Source: a virus
Length of the DNA: 64,000 nucleotides
IMG/VR virus record: IMGVR_UViG_3300014720_000031
Coordinates: 2,881-66,880 of that record
Reading direction: 5' to 3' (one strand)
A program made the position numbers and the translations under genes. This document shows positions 24,018 to 30,505 of the stretch, one piece after another; positions within the stretch are counted from its first letter, which is position 1; each line of letters starts with the position of its first letter. A model generated the notes under the pieces. It saw only the letters and a list, made by a program, of their open reading frames with translations. It was not told the DNA's origin and searched no databases.

Positions 24018-24860
24018 TTATATGTGATATTTTAGACTTATTCTAGAATTTATTATATCATTTGTTCTTAGTGAAAAATTCTTACCAACAAGATATCCAC
24101 TTTTTAAATTCATAGATATTTTGGCATCTCCAGACCATGGACTCGCGTAATTAATATTAGTATTGTTAATTAAGCTATTTATATTCCTTATATTCATATC
24201 GTATGTATTTAACTCGACAAAAAGATCGATTTGTTCTTCATTATAAACTACTCTGTGTGGATATGTCTTTTCTAATGTATATATTGGTTGAACATCAGCC
24301 TTATAGGATAGGTCAATTTTTCTAATATCATGACTAGAAAATTCATTTGAATTATCTTGAAATATTAAAGTTGTAGAAGATCCATGAGAATAGAAATTTT
24401 GCTGATTGACACCGACATCGTAAGAATCTACTCCAAGTGTTCCATTGAATTGACTATTTGTAACACTATAAAATACAAACTCTGCCTGAGACGATATCAT
24501 ATTGTCTGGATCTGCTGAAATATTATATGATCTTAAGTAGCCACTATTAAATATAGCATTCCCACATGTTATTTTAAAATTATCTTTATCTCCTCCAGTT
24601 TTTAATATATTATTAATAAAAATATAATCCTTTGGAGCTTGAGATAGGAATGATACATTTATAACTGCCGCCAAACCATCTGCATTGTTTCCTCTAAAAG
24701 GATGTTTTTGATTGACTATATAAGCAAAGCCAGCATTTGGATTTATTTCTAAAGATATATTTTGAGCGGTAAAATTATACTGATTGTACAAAGCTGGAGC
24801 AATTCCATATTTATTGAAGCTCTGAATTGAAATTGGAAAATTTTTATAAGAATAAAACAT
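24018..24860 (-). CDS. tail-tube-like paralog
   Basis: 'AQNISLEI', 'SGYLRSYNISA' and 'IDLSYKADVQPIYTL' mirror the two-domain pattern of 5460-6536. Confidence 0.5.
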   Translation of the reverse strand: MFYSYKNFPISIQSFNKYGIAPALYNQYNFTAQNISLEINPNAGFAYIVNQKHPFRGNNADGLAAVINVSFLSQAPKDYIFINNILKTGGDKDNFKITCGNAIFNSGYLRSYNISADPDNMISSQAEFVFYSVTNSQFNGTLGVDSYDVGVNQQNFYSHGSSTTLIFQDNSNEFSSHDIRKIDLSYKADVQPIYTLEKTYPHRVVYNEEQIDLFVELNTYDMNIRNINSLINNTNINYASPWSGDAKISMNLKSGYLVGKNFSLRTNDIINSRISLKYHI

Positions 24861-25672
24861 TAATAGAATTTAGTGAATCTTCTTCTTGTAGAAGTAATTC
24901 CATCAACAGAGCTTGTACCCTCTATTGTAACGCTTTGCGCTCCGCTCATAACTACTGTATAGGTTACTCCTGGGCAACAAATTGCTTCTAAAGCAAATGT
25001 AAGAATTCTTGAATCACCTGTATATATTACTCTTCTATATAATGCTTCTGACATTTCAAACTCTTCTGATGCGCCATTAAATTTTATTAGTCTTGGATCA
25101 ATTCTATTTAATATTTTTACTGGTAAATATTCTGCTCTAAAACTATATGACATATTAAATAGATTAGAATAGTCTTCTATATTTCCTAAATAAGAATTTG
25201 GAAATGCAGTCATTGCGGCTTTTGATCCATGTAGAAAGTCTGCGTCTAAATTTTGACCAACTGTATACATTCCAATTTGTCCAGTAGGAGTATTAAACGT
25301 GAAGAAAGAGGCTTGAGCATTAACTATTCTATCTGGCTCAACTGTAAAAGAAAAACTATCTAATAAGCAATTTGTATATCTAAGACCACCGATATCTATA
25401 TCACCACTTGGAGCAATATCTGTTAGGTTATTCTTCATGTTATCTATTAAAGTTTTAATAGGATCATCATTTTGAATATTATATTGAAATGATACATTAT
25501 GAGTAACTACATCATTAGGAACTTGGCTATAATAAGCTTGTCTTTTGCCGAGAGACTTGACTGGTGTTATATTATTAGTTGTTGAAAAAGTAATATTTGT
25601 TACAGGCATTGCTCCAGTTATACCATTACATATAAATCTAACTGGGGTATATTTAAAAGAATATATGCTCAT
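24860..25672 (-). CDS. tail-tube-like paralog
   Basis: 'NITPVKSLGK', 'CLLDSFSFTV' and 'SGAQ...TSSVDG' match tube motifs (GAKLDSQEFTSSVG). Confidence 0.55.
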   Translation of the reverse strand: MSIYSFKYTPVRFICNGITGAMPVTNITFSTTNNITPVKSLGKRQAYYSQVPNDVVTHNVSFQYNIQNDDPIKTLIDNMKNNLTDIAPSGDIDIGGLRYTNCLLDSFSFTVEPDRIVNAQASFFTFNTPTGQIGMYTVGQNLDADFLHGSKAAMTAFPNSYLGNIEDYSNLFNMSYSFRAEYLPVKILNRIDPRLIKFNGASEEFEMSEALYRRVIYTGDSRILTFALEAICCPGVTYTVVMSGAQSVTIEGTSSVDGITSTRRRFTKFY

Positions 25673-25681
25673 TTTATTATA

Positions 25682-25687
25682 TTACAC
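25682..25687 (-). promoter_or_regulatory. GTGTAA putative late-promoter motif
   Basis: AGTGTAATATAATAAA-ATG; 9 nt to the start at 25672. Confidence 0.6.
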
Positions 25688-25720
25688 TGTTATTTTTTCT
25701 AAAAGAAGATTAAATTGATT

Positions 25721-25967
25721 AGCCACTTTCCTCTGCTCATACGGCTTAGTCCGGTGTTCATTTTTATTTATAAATAAATTAGATATTTAGCCAATCTATC
25801 GCCGATTGCTCGGTGTCCTCCCAATTCTAAAAGTCCTAAGACTACATAGAAAAATTAAGTCTAATAGATCGTTTATCAGCTTAGGGCCTTGGTTAGGCTT
25901 TTTGGGCCTTTTTGAATGTATTTCGGAGATATTCCCTCTGTCCACTCGTTCCTCGGCTTGTCACCTT
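25721..25967 (-). ncRNA. putative structured non-coding RNA (exon of the group I ribozyme, possibly circular)
   Basis: Locally GC-richer with no credible ORF. Hairpins CCGA-GCAA-UCGG, CCUAAG/CUUAGG and UAGAU/AUCUA; bounded by predicted splice sites. Confidence 0.5.
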
Positions 25968-26234
25968 CAATTTATTTAATATCTTTAATTTTAAATAAAG
26001 ATTTTCTTATTGTTACCAATAAGATTGGACTATGTCTTATTTATATTTTATATAAATTTGGGCGCTCGTGTCCTTGTTATTCCTGCGGAAGGTCAAAGAT
26101 TAGTCTCTACACCTTCTTATATCATTTTTAAACCGCGATATAAGCTTGGCTCGGCGTTACCCTATATTATATGTCAAAGAACTTTTATTTTATATAGGAC
26201 TTTCACCGAATTCACCCAATACGGCCATAAGGTG
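25968..26234 (-). ncRNA. group I intron/ribozyme core (IA-like)
   Basis: P3 UUGGGUG/CGCCCAA, P4 UUCGGUG/CGCCGAG, P5 CCUAUAU/AUAUAGG, P6a CUUAUAUC/GAUAUAAG, R GGUGUAGAGACUA, S AAGACAUAGUCC, P8, P9 CUUAUUG-GUAA-CAAUAAG, P9.1, terminal G at 25968. Confidence 0.88.
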
Positions 26235-26240
26235 TTACAC
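26235..26240 (-). promoter_or_regulatory. GTGTAA motif immediately upstream of the ribozyme
   Basis: AGTGTAAC on the minus strand, 14 nt after the stop of the large mucin-like gene. Confidence 0.45.
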
Positions 26241-26254
26241 TTGTATAGTCCCGA

Positions 26255-29200
26255 TTAGATTGTTATTGCGTATTTATTTGCTAAATATGTATTTACTGCT
26301 GATATTTGCGATGGGCTTAATTCTTTATTATATATTAATACTTCAGCTAAATTACCCTGCCAGTAATATTGTCCTCCCCAATTTTGAACCCCTAAGAATG
26401 GTCCACCATTTGGGAAAGAATTAGTATATGTGCTGCTACTATATGATGGAGCAAGAAAATCTGGATAAAAAGATATGAAGCCTGTATTATTTATAGCTAT
26501 ATATCTATTTTGATTACTCGACATAGTTGTTAATATATGCCATCCAGTTATCGCATTTGGGGCAGCAAAATAATCTCTATAGGTATAAGCGAATCCATCA
26601 TAAATTTGACCATCTTCCCAAGCGTAGTGACTACCTCCGTCAATATTATTACCAAAATCTCCAAATACAGATCCAAGTTGTTTATTCAAGTAATCTGAGA
26701 CTGTTCTTGCGACTGCAAATGCTGTAGCTCCTGTTGTTGAACCCGTGCTTAGTATCGCTGGCAAATCTATGAAATTCGATCCATCAAAAATAACCGAACC
26801 ATAGCCATTAATCAAATGATTAGAAGCTTGGGAAAAACTTGCGCCAAATATTTCTGGAGAATTTTGAGCATTACTTGAATCAACAAATGGATTCTCTGGT
26901 TTTAACCAATAAACTAAATTATTTAAGATATTAAATCCAGGTAATGGGGTTGTTGTAGTGGTGCTTGTTGTAGTGGTGCTTGTTGTAGTAGTACTTGTAG
27001 TGGCTGCAGGAGTTGCACAACTTAAATAATAAGTATATATTGGAGATGTACCTTGACACAATTGACTTTGGGTAGTTACTATGACTTTGACTATAGAATT
27101 ATTTAAATTATTTAAATTTGATACAGTTCCGCCCCCATTGAAACCTATTGGACCAGAATTAAAAATTAAATTAGTCCCAGCGTAATCATATAATGAAAAT
27201 ACTAAAATTTCATCAGAATTATCAACTGTAAATGTAAAATCAAATGTTCCTAATGCGTTTGTGTCAACATATCTTGTATGTATGCATGTATTATTTATTG
27301 TCCAGTTCGAATCATTATAATCATAATATGTAATTGCACAATTTCCTGCCAAAGCACTAACTGGAGTAGTTGAAGTTGTGGTTGTTGTAGTGGTTGTCGT
27401 ACTAGTGGTCGTCGTAGTAGTACTTGTAGGACCAACAGTGCCAATTATTTTGAATGCTTTTGAATTATTTTCATTATTATAATAGTTTGATAATCTATAA
27501 GTACCATCCGAAGTTATATTAGTATTATCGACTGAAGTGTTTGAAGTAGTTTTAATTCTAAATTGAATTTGACCCATTAGACCGCCCCAACTTAATTCAA
27601 TGTTTTCATTAGAGAAATTATCAGAATTCAAAGACCATTCATATAATGGACCACCTTCAAAATTATTTAAACTAGAATATAATCCTAAGTTCTTTGGTCC
27701 TTTATTTGAAGAACGATTTCCAACCAATATTCTTTTTAATGTAGCTTCATATCCATTTTCAATATTAAAACCAAAAGAAACATAATCATTTGTGTCCTGA
27801 CTCCAAGCTTTAGAGCAAAATGAGTTTGATCCAGATGCCGCCAAAAGGCCTGGGCCTCTTTGTAAATCTAGAGCAGTAATATGATTTGAACCAATTCCAG
27901 TGACTAGATTTTCATCTCCATTTCTACCATCGAGCTCCCAAGCAACTAATGCTGGACAACTTAATTGATAATTATAATAAACAAAAGGCGCACAATCATC
28001 TGAATTTTGTACTTTTATATAAACTAAAGCATTATTCGCTTCTGATGTTTTTACAAATCCTACAGATGCAGAGGTTGATGTTGGTCCAAAAGGATAAAGT
28101 ATATTATTATAATTAACATAACCACTAATTTGGTAACCTTCTGAATAAAATGCCAAAGAAGCAAGTCCTTGAGAATCTCCATCAAGACTAATATTTCTTT
28201 TATGTTGACAACCATAAGATACCCAATCTAAATCATTTGTTTCATTGTATATAACATCGCATTCACCTTCTGTTACAGGAACAGGAGGAGGAGTCGTTGT
28301 CGTTGTAGTCGTTGTTGTTGTAGTAGTTGTGGTTGTTGTTGTCGTTGTAGTAGTGGTTGTAGTCGTTGTGAATCTTTCGCAAAATATAGAATAAAAGTAC
28401 CAAGCATTAATTGAGCAATCTATTGTCGAATCTATTAGTACATATACTGTAGCATATTCTGGATCTCCAGCTATTCTTTCGAAAAGAACATTTCCATAAT
28501 ATCCTGAGCTTTCTGTTCCTAAAGCGACAACAAGTCTATTACCAAGATATACATAGAAATTTAAATTAATATTATTTTCTGCTCCCCAATTGAAGCGTAA
28601 ATTGCCCAAATCGCTTCCTATAAATATTCTTCTTCCATCTAAGCATCCTCCACTAACCCAATTTGGATTATCTACTTCATAATAATTATTACCACAAGTT
28701 CCATCTGGTAATAATGGAAATGGGGTAGTTGTAGTAGTCGTAGTGGTGGTAGTAGTCGTGGTAGTCGTGGTCGTAGTTGTAGTAGACGAAGTCAAATCAT
28801 AAAAATATATATATTTTTGTCCTACAAATAGAATTTTTGATCCAAGATACTCAGCGGTTACAGATATCCAATTATCTAGATATGGTAATGTGGCAATTGA
28901 ATAATTAGGTAAATTATAAGATGGTAACGGAACAAAATTTGTTTTAGAAATTAAAAATACATTTGTTTTTAAATCATTGGTCCTAGATTTTTTAACTGCT
29001 ATGACCCAAGTACCTCCTCCTGGATTAATATCAAAATTTGTCCACGCTACTTCTGTCAATTCGTAATCTAATTCAAATCCAGCTGATGCCCAATTTTCTC
29101 CAAATCCTGAGAAATAAAATTTACCATTATTATTTCCAAAAGCATTTATTGTTGGAGTATCATTAAATAAACGCATTTCTGTTTCGCCCACGTTATTCTC

Positions 29201-30439
29201 CCATTCTGAAGGGGGATAATTTAGACTTTGCTGCCAATTTATACCATCAGAAGAATATGTGGTTCCAGTACCTTTAGCATGGGCGACAAAATTATATCTA
29301 GTATAATCTCTAACTATTTGAATCCAATTTCCTTCAAAAGGAAACTGTCTTATTGTATACGTTATAAACTCATTTTCAGAAGTAATATATTCATTTGTAT
29401 ATAATTCTCCATTTGATATTTTATGAGAGAATATCGCTATATATAATGGGGGCTGGCCGCCTCTCGTAATCCAATTTGACCCAGTATATCTAGAAGATGG
29501 CACCGAGCGAGCATAAAATTCATTTTCATTAGAGTCAAAAACATAAATATAATTTGAGTTTACTCCTCCTCCAGCTGTAATTATAAAACTTCCTCCAGAG
29601 CCAGCGCTAATAGAAGTAGGAACAAGTCCTTGCGAAATTTTTGAGGCTTCATCTTGCGGGATTGGGATATTAAATGATGCCCAATTAACTCTATCAGAAG
29701 TAATATATAATTTCCAATCTTTTGCTAAAATTGCCCATTTATAATTTCCTTGAGAATAAGCAGAGTCTATTGCAGTATTTTCTGGTATTGGTTGTATTGG
29801 CTCTGGAGTAGTGGTTGTTGTTGTTGTTGTTGTCGAAGTAGTGCTTGTAGTAGTAGTTGTTAATTCAGTGCATGGGTTGAAAGAAAAAGAATTTAACGAC
29901 GGACAACTATTAAAAATAATTTGCTCAGTGCTTGCTTTATAAATTTTTATCCAATTTAAATAATTATCGCACTCTCCTAAACCATAGCCTCGATCTTGAT
30001 TTCCTGGGATTGCACAAGAAATTTCTAGATTAATAAGTCCGCCTATTGAATTACTAGATATTTCGCTGATTTGTTGTTCTGTTAAAATAAATTGAGCAGT
30101 TCTATCTGCCCCGTCATCTGCATTATTTAAATTTGCTACGCCTAGATTTATTCCATTTGCTTGTACAAAAAATTCTGCTGCATTTGATGCCGTTGCAGTT
30201 GGACATGGTCCAAAGATATTTGAACGTTTTACTTCTATTATTAAATCTACAAAACATGGATTAGGACTTGTTGTTGTAGAGCTAGTCGTTGTTGTGGTAG
30301 TACTTGTAGTAGTAGTGGTAGTAGTCGTAGTAGTTTCTGGAGGAATAGTATCGCAACATATTAAGAAATTATTTCCATTAATATCAACAGTTCCTGGAGG
30401 TAATGATATTTGGGTACTTGGTCCGTTAATACATGACAT
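26255..30439 (-). CDS. modular mucin-like virion/adhesion protein with six poly-Thr linkers and a C-terminal ConA/LamG-like domain
   Basis: Probable start ATG 30439, because a GTGTAA motif lies within the annotated 5' extension. Three copies of a 'G.C...Y...D..W...C...R' module; C-terminal 'LVYWL...FDG...GNLAEVLIYNKELS'. Confidence 0.75.
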   Translation of the reverse strand: MSCINGPSTQISLPPGTVDINGNNFLICCDTIPPETTTTTTTTTTSTTTTTTSSTTTSPNPCFVDLIIEVKRSNIFGPCPTATASNAAEFFVQANGINLGVANLNNADDGADRTAQFILTEQQISEISSNSIGGLINLEISCAIPGNQDRGYGLGECDNYLNWIKIYKASTEQIIFNSCPSLNSFSFNPCTELTTTTTSTTSTTTTTTTTTPEPIQPIPENTAIDSAYSQGNYKWAILAKDWKLYITSDRVNWASFNIPIPQDEASKISQGLVPTSISAGSGGSFIITAGGGVNSNYIYVFDSNENEFYARSVPSSRYTGSNWITRGGQPPLYIAIFSHKISNGELYTNEYITSENEFITYTIRQFPFEGNWIQIVRDYTRYNFVAHAKGTGTTYSSDGINWQQSLNYPPSEWENNVGETEMRLFNDTPTINAFGNNNGKFYFSGFGENWASAGFELDYELTEVAWTNFDINPGGGTWVIAVKKSRTNDLKTNVFLISKTNFVPLPSYNLPNYSIATLPYLDNWISVTAEYLGSKILFVGQKYIYFYDLTSSTTTTTTTTTTTTTTTTTTTTPFPLLPDGTCGNNYYEVDNPNWVSGGCLDGRRIFIGSDLGNLRFNWGAENNINLNFYVYLGNRLVVALGTESSGYYGNVLFERIAGDPEYATVYVLIDSTIDCSINAWYFYSIFCERFTTTTTTTTTTTTTTTTTTTTTTTTTTPPPVPVTEGECDVIYNETNDLDWVSYGCQHKRNISLDGDSQGLASLAFYSEGYQISGYVNYNNILYPFGPTSTSASVGFVKTSEANNALVYIKVQNSDDCAPFVYYNYQLSCPALVAWELDGRNGDENLVTGIGSNHITALDLQRGPGLLAASGSNSFCSKAWSQDTNDYVSFGFNIENGYEATLKRILVGNRSSNKGPKNLGLYSSLNNFEGGPLYEWSLNSDNFSNENIELSWGGLMGQIQFRIKTTSNTSVDNTNITSDGTYRLSNYYNNENNSKAFKIIGTVGPTSTTTTTTSTTTTTTTTTSTTPVSALAGNCAITYYDYNDSNWTINNTCIHTRYVDTNALGTFDFTFTVDNSDEILVFSLYDYAGTNLIFNSGPIGFNGGGTVSNLNNLNNSIVKVIVTTQSQLCQGTSPIYTYYLSCATPAATTSTTTTSTTTTSTTTTTPLPGFNILNNLVYWLKPENPFVDSSNAQNSPEIFGASFSQASNHLINGYGSVIFDGSNFIDLPAILSTGSTTGATAFAVARTVSDYLNKQLGSVFGDFGNNIDGGSHYAWEDGQIYDGFAYTYRDYFAAPNAITGWHILTTMSSNQNRYIAINNTGFISFYPDFLAPSYSSSTYTNSFPNGGPFLGVQNWGGQYYWQGNLAEVLIYNKELSPSQISAVNTYLANKYAITI

Positions 30440-30449
30440 ATAAGGTAAA

Positions 30450-30455
30450 TTACAC
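30450..30455 (-). promoter_or_regulatory. GTGTAA putative late-promoter motif
   Basis: 10 nt upstream of ATG 30439. Confidence 0.55.
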
Positions 30456-30505
30456 AACTATTCTTTTTTTTTAGAATAATCTTAAACTTATATATATTAT
30501 AATAT

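What the first reader, a model, noticed from the sequence alone, without database searches (positions are those of the whole stretch)
25721..25967. Unidentified structured RNA carried as the ribozyme's exon, with an internal decoy of the guide sequence
Seen: this 247-nt segment is GC-richer than its flanks, has no credible ORF, and contains nested stems (CCUAAG 25885-25880/CUUAGG 25840-25835, AGACU/AGUCU, CCGA-GCAA-UCGG GNRA hairpin 25813-25802, UAGAU/AUCUA). AGCCGUAU (25746-25739) repeats the IGS GGCCGUAU (26226-26219) except at the wobble G, so it could sequester the 5' splice site, acting as a switch or a lock against reverse splicing. Inference: a functional ncRNA of unknown class, expressed from the late tail region.
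Basis: partly seen in the sequence, partly recalled or inferred. Interest (0 to 1): 0.75.

Follow-up and report, generated by a model that had tools for sequence, protein, structure and literature searches.

The report
Exon of permuted group I ribozyme
This 247-base stretch is most likely the piece that a rearranged (circularly permuted) self-splicing RNA of a lake-water phage cuts out and closes into a ring; it does not look like a conserved RNA family of its own.

Summary
The segment as a whole folds no better than shuffles (z -0.96), matches no Rfam family, and has only a partial counterpart in the nearest relative.

It lies directly 3' of a group I ribozyme (RF00028, 73 bits, 26266-26006, minus strand). 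That ribozyme has no convincing upstream P1/P2. Its guide sequence (wobble G26226) sits 7 nt 5' of P3, and the matching 5' splice site GGCU|A lies downstream at 25724-25721, exactly at the segment's end. The segment starts after a conserved G (25968), the predicted omega-G.

I found the same layout in 18 curated viral elements from at least six gene contexts. P1, the first P10 pair and a helix clamping the two splice sites all covary.

This is the topology of engineered "ribozyme upstream, target downstream" circular-RNA constructs. The segment is therefore the predicted circular exon (247 nt, or 179 nt if the inner GGCU at 25792-25789 is used).

Exons in the family range from 15 to 247 nt and are poorly conserved, so a new ncRNA class is not supported. 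The "decoy" AGCCGUAU is real but has about a 3% chance expectation, and L002 has no guide-like sequence at the aligned position.

No RNA data were available. Seven literature searches found no natural permuted group I ribozyme.

The parts
26255..30457 (-). Upstream 1400-aa ORF (Thr-rich linkers, Laminin_G_3-like C-terminus); stop TAA at 26257-26255
   Evidence: PF13385, 26 bits, just under the 27.6-bit cut-off
26229..26234 (-). CACCUU, complementary to the first six exon bases AAGGUG (candidate extended P10)
   Evidence: duplex -8.0 kcal/mol
26219..26227 (-). Internal guide sequence: U26227 (pairs with +1 A and with exon base 1), wobble G26226, GCC 26225-26223, GUAU; lies 7 nt 5' of P3
   Evidence: the family HMM alignment starts at 26227
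26006..26219 (-). Group I catalytic core, P3 to P9 (P9 hairpin 26023-26006 with GUAA loop)
   Evidence: RF00028 73.3 bits over 26266-26006; family HMM 26227-26008, E 1.7e-19; core helices covary in relatives
25981..26002 (-). Extra hairpin P9.1, AUCUUUA / UAAAGAU; L002 has AUUUUCA / UGAAAAU, i.e. two compensatory changes
25967..25980 (-). AU-rich tail ending in predicted omega-G (G25968); 25974-25967 is the 5' strand of the helix that clamps the two splice sites
   Evidence: conserved in L002 up to this G; helix found; omega-G rule
25721..25967 (-). The finding: predicted exon between the 3' splice site and the 5' splice site; 247 nt, predicted to be released as a circle
25802..25813 (-). GNRA hairpin CCGA-GCAA-UCGG inside the exon; a recurrent feature of exons in this family
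   Evidence: 9 of 18 exons carry a GNRA hairpin of 3 bp or more, against 2.1 in shuffled exons
25789..25792 (-). Inner GGCU|AA (site A): a second candidate 5' splice site. 25780-25771 (AAUUUAUUUA) is complementary to 25978-25969
25739..25746 (-).
25721..25724 (-). GGCU| (site B): predicted 5' splice site. Six pairs with the guide plus A25720-U26227. This is the orthologue of the single site in L002
25711..25718 (-). UCAAUUUA: 3' strand of the clamping helix, starting 2 nt after the cleavage site
24860..25687 (-). GTGTAAT motif (25687-25681) and downstream 270-aa ORF (25672-24860), no family assigned

Best explanation
The segment is the intervening 'exon' of a natural circularly permuted group I (IC3-like) ribozyme. 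The ribozyme core (26227-25968) comes first, with its guide sequence at its 5' edge and no P1 loop or P2. The strand that normally forms the 5' exon side of P1 (GUGGCU, 25726-25721) lies 247 nt downstream of omega-G. A short helix (25974-25967 with 25718-25711) holds the two splice sites together.

Inferred reaction: guanosine or GTP attacks after U25721 and releases the downstream RNA, which carries the 270-aa gene and gains an added G. The freed 3'-OH of U25721 then attacks after G25968 and closes 25967-25721 into a 247-nt circle. If the inner GGCU at 25792-25789 is used, the circle is 179 nt.

The exon is largely variable filler, plus ribozyme-serving parts: the P1 strand, a GNRA hairpin and P10 bases. 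It is not an independent conserved ncRNA.

Shown: the anatomy, and covariation in relatives. Inferred: catalysis, circle formation and any biological role.
For: (1) The core is a genuine group I fold: RF00028 at 73.3 bits. In 17 relatives RNAalifold recovers helices that I read as P3, P4, P5, P6, P8 and a helix between P7 and P3', with 24 of 38 pairs showing compensatory changes.

(2) Upstream P1/P2 is unconvincing. In the cmscan alignment that part has posterior probabilities of about 0.3-0.6 and flagged non-pairs. The family HMM aligns only from 26227.

(3) Conservation with L002 continues past the Rfam end (26006), through P9.1 with two compensatory changes, up to G25968, and then stops.

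(4) P1 with the downstream site, in 18 curated members. The wobble G always lies 7-8 nt 5' of P3. Position +1 pairs in 17 of 18 (10 C-G, 6 A-U, 1 G-C). Position -2 pairs in 18 of 18 (16 G-C; C-G in the window and L002). Position -4 pairs in 17 of 18, including one A-U. Own partners give 93 bp against 72.4 +/- 5.1 for deranged partners, with 2 of 5000 reaching 93. On MAFFT alignment A2, 86.7% of cells pair against 24-54% when slid, and the covariation score is 0.126 against 0.057, reached by 0 of 500 shuffles.

(5) Clamping helix: 94 bp own against 64.7 +/- 4.6 deranged, reached by 0 of 5000, in 15 members. There are 15 different 5'-strand sequences at the same place, about 8 nt after P9.

(6) The base after the predicted omega-G pairs with the guide base 5' of the wobble G in 16 of 17 members (11 Watson-Crick). 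At slid positions the figure is 6-11 of 17.

(7) Site B is the orthologue of L002's site: score 12.5 against -3.5 +/- 3.4, reached by 0 of 1000 shuffles.

(8) Feasibility: engineered Tetrahymena constructs with the target RNA downstream of the ribozyme do circularise it (PMC10415121, abstract read). [quoted passage not shown]
Against: No RNA evidence of any kind: no RNA run holds the sequence, so cleavage, circle formation and even transcription are untested.

I chose the cleavage sites of the 18 members by motif (GG[GC]U, AGGU or UGGU followed by xA). Pairing at -1 to -4 is therefore partly built in. The independent signals are +1, -5/-6, the fixed spacing, the clamping helix and the P10 pair. 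Many members are orthologues at one site, so the counts are not independent events.

In the window alone, P1 is short (5-6 pairs, three of them G.U), and 4-bp candidates also exist upstream in the ORF at 26479 and 26387. P10 in the window is either 1 bp in register or 6 bp displaced by 2 nt.

Exons of 15-21 nt in six members are very small circles. They may mean that only the first step (cleavage) matters.

The window and L002 are the most divergent members (HMM scores 65-72 against 106-191 for the other members). The window has two candidate 5' sites.
Confidence: 0.6

Rival explanations
1. Conventional group I intron sitting in the stop codon or 3' UTR of the tail-fibre-like gene. The 5' splice site would be after U26257 and the 3' splice site after G26006. 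The 247 nt would then be ordinary untranslated spacer.
For: cmscan aligns the full model over 26266-26006. Joining U26257 to A26005 would regenerate UAA, so the protein would be unchanged (read).
Against: The P1/P2 part of that alignment is weak: low posteriors and only about 3 real pairs. In L002 the ORF stop lies about 40 nt further upstream and the leader sequence differs. Conservation and covariation run on past 26006 to 25968. In 18 members the guide pairs with a downstream site, with covariation. The family HMM starts at the guide, whereas conventional introns fetched here align only from HMM position 12 or later (mostly 16 or later).
Confidence: 0.1
2. A group I-derived, one-step self-cleaving ribozyme. 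The segment would stay attached as the ribozyme's 3' domain, presenting the P1 strand. Only the cut after GGCU matters: it frees or unmasks the downstream late mRNA and adds a G to it. No circle is formed, or only as a by-product.
For: Exons are as short as 15-21 nt in six members. In 10 of 18 curated members (L007, L019, L032, L054, L055, L056, L058, L059, L061, L052) the downstream AUG lies 1-10 nt after the cleavage site, inside or next to the clamping helix. GNRA hairpins in the exon look like structural accessories.
Against: A G is retained at or near the end of the 5' strand of the clamp even where its partner changes (C or U), and the next base covaries with the guide in 16 of 17 members. 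Those are features needed only for the second step. In the window the AUG is 48 nt from site B.
Confidence: 0.2
3. One reading: the segment is an independent structured ncRNA of a new class, delivered by the ribozyme, with AGCCGUAU acting as a decoy or lock on the 5' splice site.
For: Local hairpins exist. The guide-like 8-mer has about a 0.03 chance expectation and can pair with GGCU (-6.7 kcal/mol). This exon is the longest in the family, so it may carry cargo. L010 and L012 also repeat 7 bases of their guide inside the exon (read).
Against: z -0.96. No Rfam match at E<=10. The 5' ~90 nt have no counterpart in L002, and the decoy position aligns to a non-guide-like hairpin arm there. In L010 and L012 the repeated bases form a hairpin of their own, with compensatory changes between the two. 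The family HMM finds nothing in the exon at E<=100.
Confidence: 0.1
4. The 3' part of the segment is debris of a tandem duplication of the 5'-splice-site module, or of a whole second element whose core was lost. The decoy would be a vestige.
For: Two GGCUAA copies lie 68 nt apart. Modules A and B align weakly with each other (26 of 1000 shuffles reach the score) and both align to L002's single module (11 and 0 of 1000). The 7-mers AUCUAAU and GCCGUAU are shared in the same order with the ribozyme leader.
Against: The leader-versus-tail local alignment is not significant: 206 of 1000 shuffles reach it. No ribozyme remnant is detectable in the exon. This explains the origin of the sequence, not whether it is used. 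It is compatible with the best explanation.
Confidence: 0.3

Closest known systems
Group I self-splicing introns, IC3-like (Rfam RF00028); conventional examples fetched here are L025 (tRNA-Arg UCU anticodon loop), L041-L049 (tRNA genes) and L021 (psbA)
   Same: Same catalytic core motifs and helices, a U.G wobble in P1, a G before the 3' splice site, and P9 followed by a short tail ending in G.
   Different: The order of the splice sites is reversed. The guide sits at the 5' edge with no P1 loop and no P2. The 5'-exon strand lies 3' of omega-G. The element sits between genes, not inside a gene. The label 'IC3' and the resemblance to Azoarcus or cyanobacterial tRNA introns are recalled, not tested.
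Natural circularly permuted group II ribozymes (Roth et al. 2021, PMC8637638; passages read)
   Same: [quoted passage not shown] That paper predicts circles of 15-86 nt; here they are 15-247 nt. The biological role is unknown in both cases.
   Different: A different ribozyme class and chemistry: exogenous G rather than a branch adenosine, so no branched product. Found in phage structural-gene regions rather than bacterial chromosomes or plasmids. Activity is not shown here.
Engineered circular-RNA constructs: permuted intron-exon designs, and 'target downstream of the ribozyme' designs (Cui et al. 2023, PMC10415121, abstract; Qi et al. 2024, PMC11417360, abstract and section 20)
   Same: The whole ribozyme core is on one side of the sequence to be circularised. 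Added complementary arms bring the ends together, as the natural clamping helix would. P1 and P10 define the junction.
   Different: Those are man-made and based on Tetrahymena or other introns. In Qi et al. the core is at the 3' end and the break is in P9.0. Here the break is in the P1 loop and the core is at the 5' end.

Membership tests
Group I intron (RF00028) | Conserved catalytic core, scored by the curated covariance model | tested here: met
   73.3 bits against a gathering score of 50, over 26266-26006. This applies to the neighbouring ribozyme, not to the 247-nt segment itself.
Group I intron (RF00028) | P1 helix between the guide sequence and the 5' splice site, with a U.G wobble | tested here: met
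   G26226.U25721 plus 5 further pairs and A25720-U26227. Covariation in 18 members. The site lies downstream of the core.
Group I intron (RF00028) | Canonical order: 5' exon, then P1-P2, then core, then omega-G, then 3' exon | tested here: not met
   No credible upstream P1/P2. The splice sites are in reverse order, so this is not a conventional intron.
Group I intron (RF00028) | Omega-G at the 3' splice site, and P10 with the following bases | tested here: inconclusive
   G25968 is conserved in L002. The next base pairs with the guide in 16 of 17 members. However, the choice of G rests on a rule of mine, and no activity data exist.
Group I intron (RF00028) | Self-splicing or guanosine-dependent cleavage activity | not testable with these tools
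   No RNA run was listed.
Circularly permuted self-splicing ribozymes (CP group II type) | Splice sites in reverse order with a short intervening sequence released as a circle | tested here: inconclusive
   The reverse order is supported by covariation. The circle is not observed.
Circularly permuted self-splicing ribozymes (CP group II type) | Group II domains D1-D6 | tested here: not met
   The only Rfam match is group I. It works like this family but is not a member.
Any described ncRNA family (for the segment itself) | Match to an Rfam covariance model | tested here: not met
   No match in 25400-26500 at E<=10 other than the ribozyme.
Small protein gene (for the segment itself) | ORF with homologues or a family match | tested here: not met
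   The 49-aa GTG frame has no Pfam match and no tblastn match in phages. The large protein databases were not searched.

The most novel reading that the evidence does not exclude
Phages carry a family of natural circularly permuted group I ribozymes that back-splice. In this phage the ribozyme releases an unusually long exon as a stable 247-nt circular RNA that acts in trans as cargo. The same cut gives the downstream late mRNA a new G-initiated 5' end.
Probability: 0.15. Interest if true: 0.9.

Novelty: new variant of a known kind. Interest (0 to 1): 0.75.

Why it matters
Circular permutation that reverses the splice sites has been described in nature for group II ribozymes. In seven full-text searches I found no report of it for group I.

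If the prediction holds, phages already use the topology that RNA engineers designed for making circular RNA. These compact ribozymes (about 200-260 nt) lack P2, carry a built-in clamping helix, and would be ready-made natural scaffolds.

It would also open a question about phage late-gene expression. In 10 of 18 curated members the start codon of a virion structural gene sits within 10 nt of the predicted cut and inside the clamp. Ribozyme cleavage could therefore unmask or create the translated 5' end.

For annotation: the Rfam model, even with lax filters, reported only 3 of 7 such loci, and it forces a false upstream P1/P2 onto the window.

For the finding itself, the lesson is negative. 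The exon is the least conserved part and should not be filed as a new ncRNA family on present evidence.

Tried and rejected
The segment as a thermodynamically unusual structure: rejected (z -0.96 and -0.38).

Rfam, including a lax search of 25400-26500: only the ribozyme matched. tRNA genes in the window: none found by ARAGORN. I considered a tRNA-embedded intron because the bases after 26006 resemble the 3' exon of tRNA introns fetched later, but no tRNA halves are present.

blastn of 25600-26400 against phage records: no match.

The segment as a decayed second ribozyme: the best local match to a relative's guide-P3 region (19 of 23 bases) did not exceed the shuffle maximum, and the family HMM found nothing in the exon at E<=100.

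The leader-plus-guide duplicated in the 3' part of the segment: not significant (206 of 1000 shuffles).

Orthology of L002's exon end is ambiguous. A semi-global alignment placed it at site A (2 of 500 shuffles). MAFFT placed it at site B. Module-by-module scoring favoured B.

RNAduplex with wide search regions for the clamping helix was too noisy: the member's own partner was best in only 1 of 19. The first helix search gave weak separation. I replaced these with a position-restricted test.

Metagenome scan with a ribozyme pattern gave 12 loci. As I read them, 9 lie in tRNA genes, 2 in a coding context, and 1 is the L002 contig again. There were no new members and no homologue of the segment.

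Genome scan gave 41 loci, of which only L086 (a copy of the L052 type on a 1.6-kb MAG contig) holds a ribozyme. The others are chance matches in coding DNA.

Exact patterns from P9 and from the GNRA hairpin of the segment in viral contigs: only L002's contig and nothing, respectively.

No RNA holder was listed. Laying contigs of four DNA runs showed the same phage in X2 and other contigs that match only the ribozyme core, with no joints. A part without cover proves nothing.

An nhmmer profile was used instead.

L016/L029 (a 13-bp leader-trailer helix and no GCCC guide) and L023/L028/L037 (shortened cores) were left out of the curated set as unclear. L062 is cut by the locus end. L053, L057 and L045 duplicate L051, L055 and L002.

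Rows dropped before counts. One search left out L001, L002 and L052 (extra hairpin after P9) and L060 (near-duplicate of L051), leaving 15 of 19. Searches left out L060 (18 of 19). additionally lost L052 (no G within the rule), leaving 17. In one search, 3 of 17 rows (L010, L012, L027) had gaps at the 3' columns because MAFFT misplaced their ends, and L054 is shifted by one column.

Supplementary files of papers were not consulted.

Full report
**What is at the coordinates.**

On the minus strand the order of features is as follows:
- a 1400-aa ORF, 30457-26255, with Thr-rich linkers and a Laminin_G_3-like end;
- a group I ribozyme: RF00028, 73.3 bits, 26266-26006;
- a small AU-rich hairpin and tail, 26002-25968;
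- the 247-nt segment, 25967-25721;
- 48 nt of spacer carrying a GTGTAAT motif;
- a 270-aa ORF, 25672-24860.

The two 3' arms of the CCUAAG/AGACU helices overlap by 2 nt.

GC content is 0.35-0.42 against 0.23-0.29 in the immediate spacers.

The segment as a whole is not more stable than shuffles. The MFE is -53.8 against -49.2 +/- 4.7, z -0.96, and 32 of 200 shuffles fold as well. The other strand gives z -0.38.

A lax Rfam search of 25400-26500 finds nothing but the ribozyme.

The one 49-aa frame has no Pfam family and no tblastn match in phage records.

**The nearest relatives.**

The 270-aa protein retrieves four viral loci.

L003 has a 17-nt intergenic gap. The family profile finds no ribozyme in L003, L004 or L005.

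L002 (76% protein identity) has a 442-nt gap holding the same ribozyme (66 bits with lax filters).

Identity between the window and L002 runs through the core and beyond the Rfam end. It continues across the hairpin 26002-25981, which carries two compensatory changes, up to G25968. There it stops.

L002's following stretch is 98 nt, not 247 nt. Only its last ~55 nt and its 3' flank align with the window.

So the ribozyme is conserved and the segment largely is not.

**Why the ribozyme is read as permuted.**

The upstream part of the cmscan alignment (P1, P2) has low posteriors and flagged non-pairs.

The sequence GGCCGUAU sits directly 5' of P3. Its complement with a terminal U.G, GUGGCU, is found downstream, exactly at the end of the segment (25726-25721). 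The next base, A25720, can pair with U26227.

The first exon base, A25967, can pair with the same U. AAGGUG (25967-25962) is complementary to CACCUU (26234-26229) at -8.0 kcal/mol.

The bases before G25968 pair with the bases 2 nt after the cut (25974-25967 with 25718-25711).

Within the window alone this is thin. Four-base-pair candidates also exist upstream in the ORF.

**The family.**

Two pattern scans of viral contigs (giving 31 and 18 loci) returned two kinds of element.

- Conventional introns, as I read them: in nrdD-like ORFs, in a tRNA-Arg(UCU) gene (L025), and in psbA (L021).
- A set of intergenic elements built like the window.

I curated 19 of the second kind, of which 17 are distinct. 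By their flanking genes they come from at least six contexts, all in virion structural regions. Nine lie upstream of a phrog_5838 virion structural protein, and two of those are on one 148.8-kb contig.

A profile built from 17 members, without the window or L002, aligns all of these from the guide sequence onward (profile positions 3-10). It aligns conventional introns only from position 12 or later (mostly 16 or later), i.e. about P3. It hits the window at 26227-26008 with E 1.7e-19.

The core helices covary strongly: 24 of 38 RNAalifold pairs show compensatory changes.

**Covariation of the permuted contacts.**

*P1* (18 members):
- The wobble G always lies 7-8 nt 5' of P3.
- Position -1 is U.G in 18 of 18.
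- Position -2 pairs in 18 of 18. It is G-C in 16, and C-G in the window and L002.
- Position -4 pairs in 17 of 18, including one A-U.
- Position -5 pairs in 11 of 18, with several pair types.
- Position +1 pairs in 17 of 18: 10 C-G, 6 A-U and 1 G-C.
- Own partners total 93 bp against 72.4 +/- 5.1 for deranged partners, and 2 of 5000 derangements reach 93.

On the MAFFT alignment A2, 86.7% of cells pair, against 80.5 +/- 2.2 in shuffles (3 of 500 reach it) and 24-54% when slid. The covariation score is 0.126 against 0.057, reached by 0 of 500 shuffles.

Caveat: I picked each cleavage site by motif, so pairing at -1 to -4 is partly built in. The independent signals are +1, -5/-6 and the spacing.

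*Clamping helix.* In 15 members the helix lies at the same place, about 8 nt after P9 and 2-5 nt after the cut. It has 15 different 5'-strand sequences. Own partners total 94 bp against 64.7 +/- 4.6 for deranged partners, reached by 0 of 5000.

*Omega-G and P10.* A G ends or adjoins the 5' strand of the clamp. The base after it pairs with the guide base 5' of the wobble G in 16 of 17 members (11 Watson-Crick). At slid positions the figure is 6-11 of 17. That is the first P10 pair, and it is needed only for exon ligation.

*Exons.* Lengths are 15, 16, 17, 20, 20, 21, 46, 48, 50, 56, 58, 67, 71, 73, 77, 98 and 247 nt. Nine of 18 exons carry a GNRA hairpin, against 2.1 in shuffled exons (maximum 7 in 500).

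**Mechanism.**

The layout is a group I intron opened in the P1 loop, with its two exons fused. It is the same topology as engineered constructs that place the target RNA downstream of a Tetrahymena ribozyme (PMC10415121, abstract). [quoted passage not shown]

The inferred steps are:
1. G or GTP attacks after U25721.
2. The downstream RNA leaves with an added G.
3. U25721 attacks after G25968.
4. The exon closes into a circle.

Natural permuted group II ribozymes do the analogous thing. Their circles are likewise short and poorly conserved (PMC8637638, passages read).

The role is unknown. In 10 of 18 curated members the downstream AUG lies 1-10 nt after the cut, within or next to the clamp. 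This suggests processing or unmasking of a late mRNA. In the window the AUG is 48 nt away.

**The segment itself.**

It has three parts:
- a 5' ~90 nt (25967-25878) with no counterpart in L002;
- a module ending in an inner GGCU|AA (25792-25789), with the GNRA hairpin 25813-25802;
- a 68-nt module ending in the outer GGCU|AA (25724-21).

Both modules resemble L002's single module: A is reached by 11 of 1000 shuffles and B by 0 of 1000. They also resemble each other, weakly (26 of 1000). B, with its flank, is the orthologue.

Two GGCUAA copies 68 nt apart are unusual.

The guide pairs equally well with either site (-7.5 kcal/mol). Site A has a 10-bp AU helix to 25978-25969, but it starts 8 nt from the cut, outside the family's usual spacing.

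The 'decoy' lies in module B:
- Its chance expectation is about 0.03.
- It pairs with GGCU over 4 bp (-6.7 kcal/mol).
- It is not in the local MFE fold.
- It aligns to a hairpin arm in L002 that does not resemble L002's guide.

I therefore regard it as lineage-specific, possibly a vestige of duplication. It is not a conserved switch on present evidence, though this is not excluded.

**Distribution and limits.**

The guide-P3-P4 pattern found a ribozyme in only 1 of 41 hits among genomes of 185,579 prokaryote species, and that one is a phage-like 1.6-kb MAG contig.

The metagenome scan added no member.

No RNA run holds the sequence. DNA contigs of four lake or freshwater runs show the same phage in one further sample, plus other contigs that share only the core.

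Seven full-text searches found no natural permuted group I ribozyme. The library lacks most subscription journals, so this is not proof that none is in print.

**Verdict.**

Observation: partly confirmed. Interpretation: partly supported. The segment is the ribozyme's exon, but it is not shown to be an ncRNA class or to hold a working decoy.

What is really there is a member, with the longest exon, of an apparently undescribed family of circularly permuted group I ribozymes in phages.

Confidence in the anatomy is about 0.65-0.7. Confidence in circle formation in vivo is about 0.5. Confidence in an independent function of the exon is about 0.1-0.15.

Noticed in passing
window 2971, 6590, 8923, 34384 (+) and 25687, 30455, 32773 (-): Seven of the 8 GTGTAAT copies in the window lie 9-43 nt upstream of ORF starts (the total count is at chance level). 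The same motif, GTGTAATATAT, precedes the guide sequence of the ribozymes in L010 and L012, and variants (GTGTAAC, GTGTAAA) precede those of the window and L002. It is probably a phage promoter or initiation signal. If it is a promoter, the ribozyme RNA could start at its guide sequence.
   Followed up: partly
L055:2179-2478 and L056:11801-12039 (one 148.8-kb IMG/VR contig): Two permuted ribozymes lie in one phage genome. Each sits directly upstream of a paralogous virion structural gene (phrog_5838 type), with the AUG 2-3 nt after the predicted cut.
   Followed up: partly
L016:8822-8990 (= L029): A related core without the GCCC guide. A 13-bp perfect helix joins its 5' leader to a site about 95 nt after P9, with no U.G wobble. 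This may be a different solution or a product-like state. It was left out of the counts.
   Followed up: no
L018:1094-1502: Two group I-like cores lie in tandem on one strand (two profile hits about 250 nt apart).
   Followed up: no
L010, L031, L051, L056: Rfam's group I model, even with lax filters at E<=0.01, reported only 3 of 7 loci that hold these ribozymes. L002 was also missed at the gathering setting when searched together with other loci. Such elements are therefore likely to be under-annotated.
   Followed up: partly
window 26255-30457 (-): The 1400-aa ORF is built of repeated modules separated by runs of 10-30 Thr/Ser, and its listed TTG start is probably too early. An ATG at 30439 follows a GTGTAAT motif at 30455-30449.
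   Followed up: no
window 25895-25909 (+): A terminator-like hairpin with a T-run lies on the plus strand, inside the segment's complement. No plus-strand gene runs into it.
   Followed up: no
L019, L032, L055, L061 exons: Exons at the orthologous phrog_5838 site share a UUUAUUGAAAG motif (alignment A2, columns about 228-240). Within one insertion-site lineage the exon is therefore not entirely free to vary.
   Followed up: no
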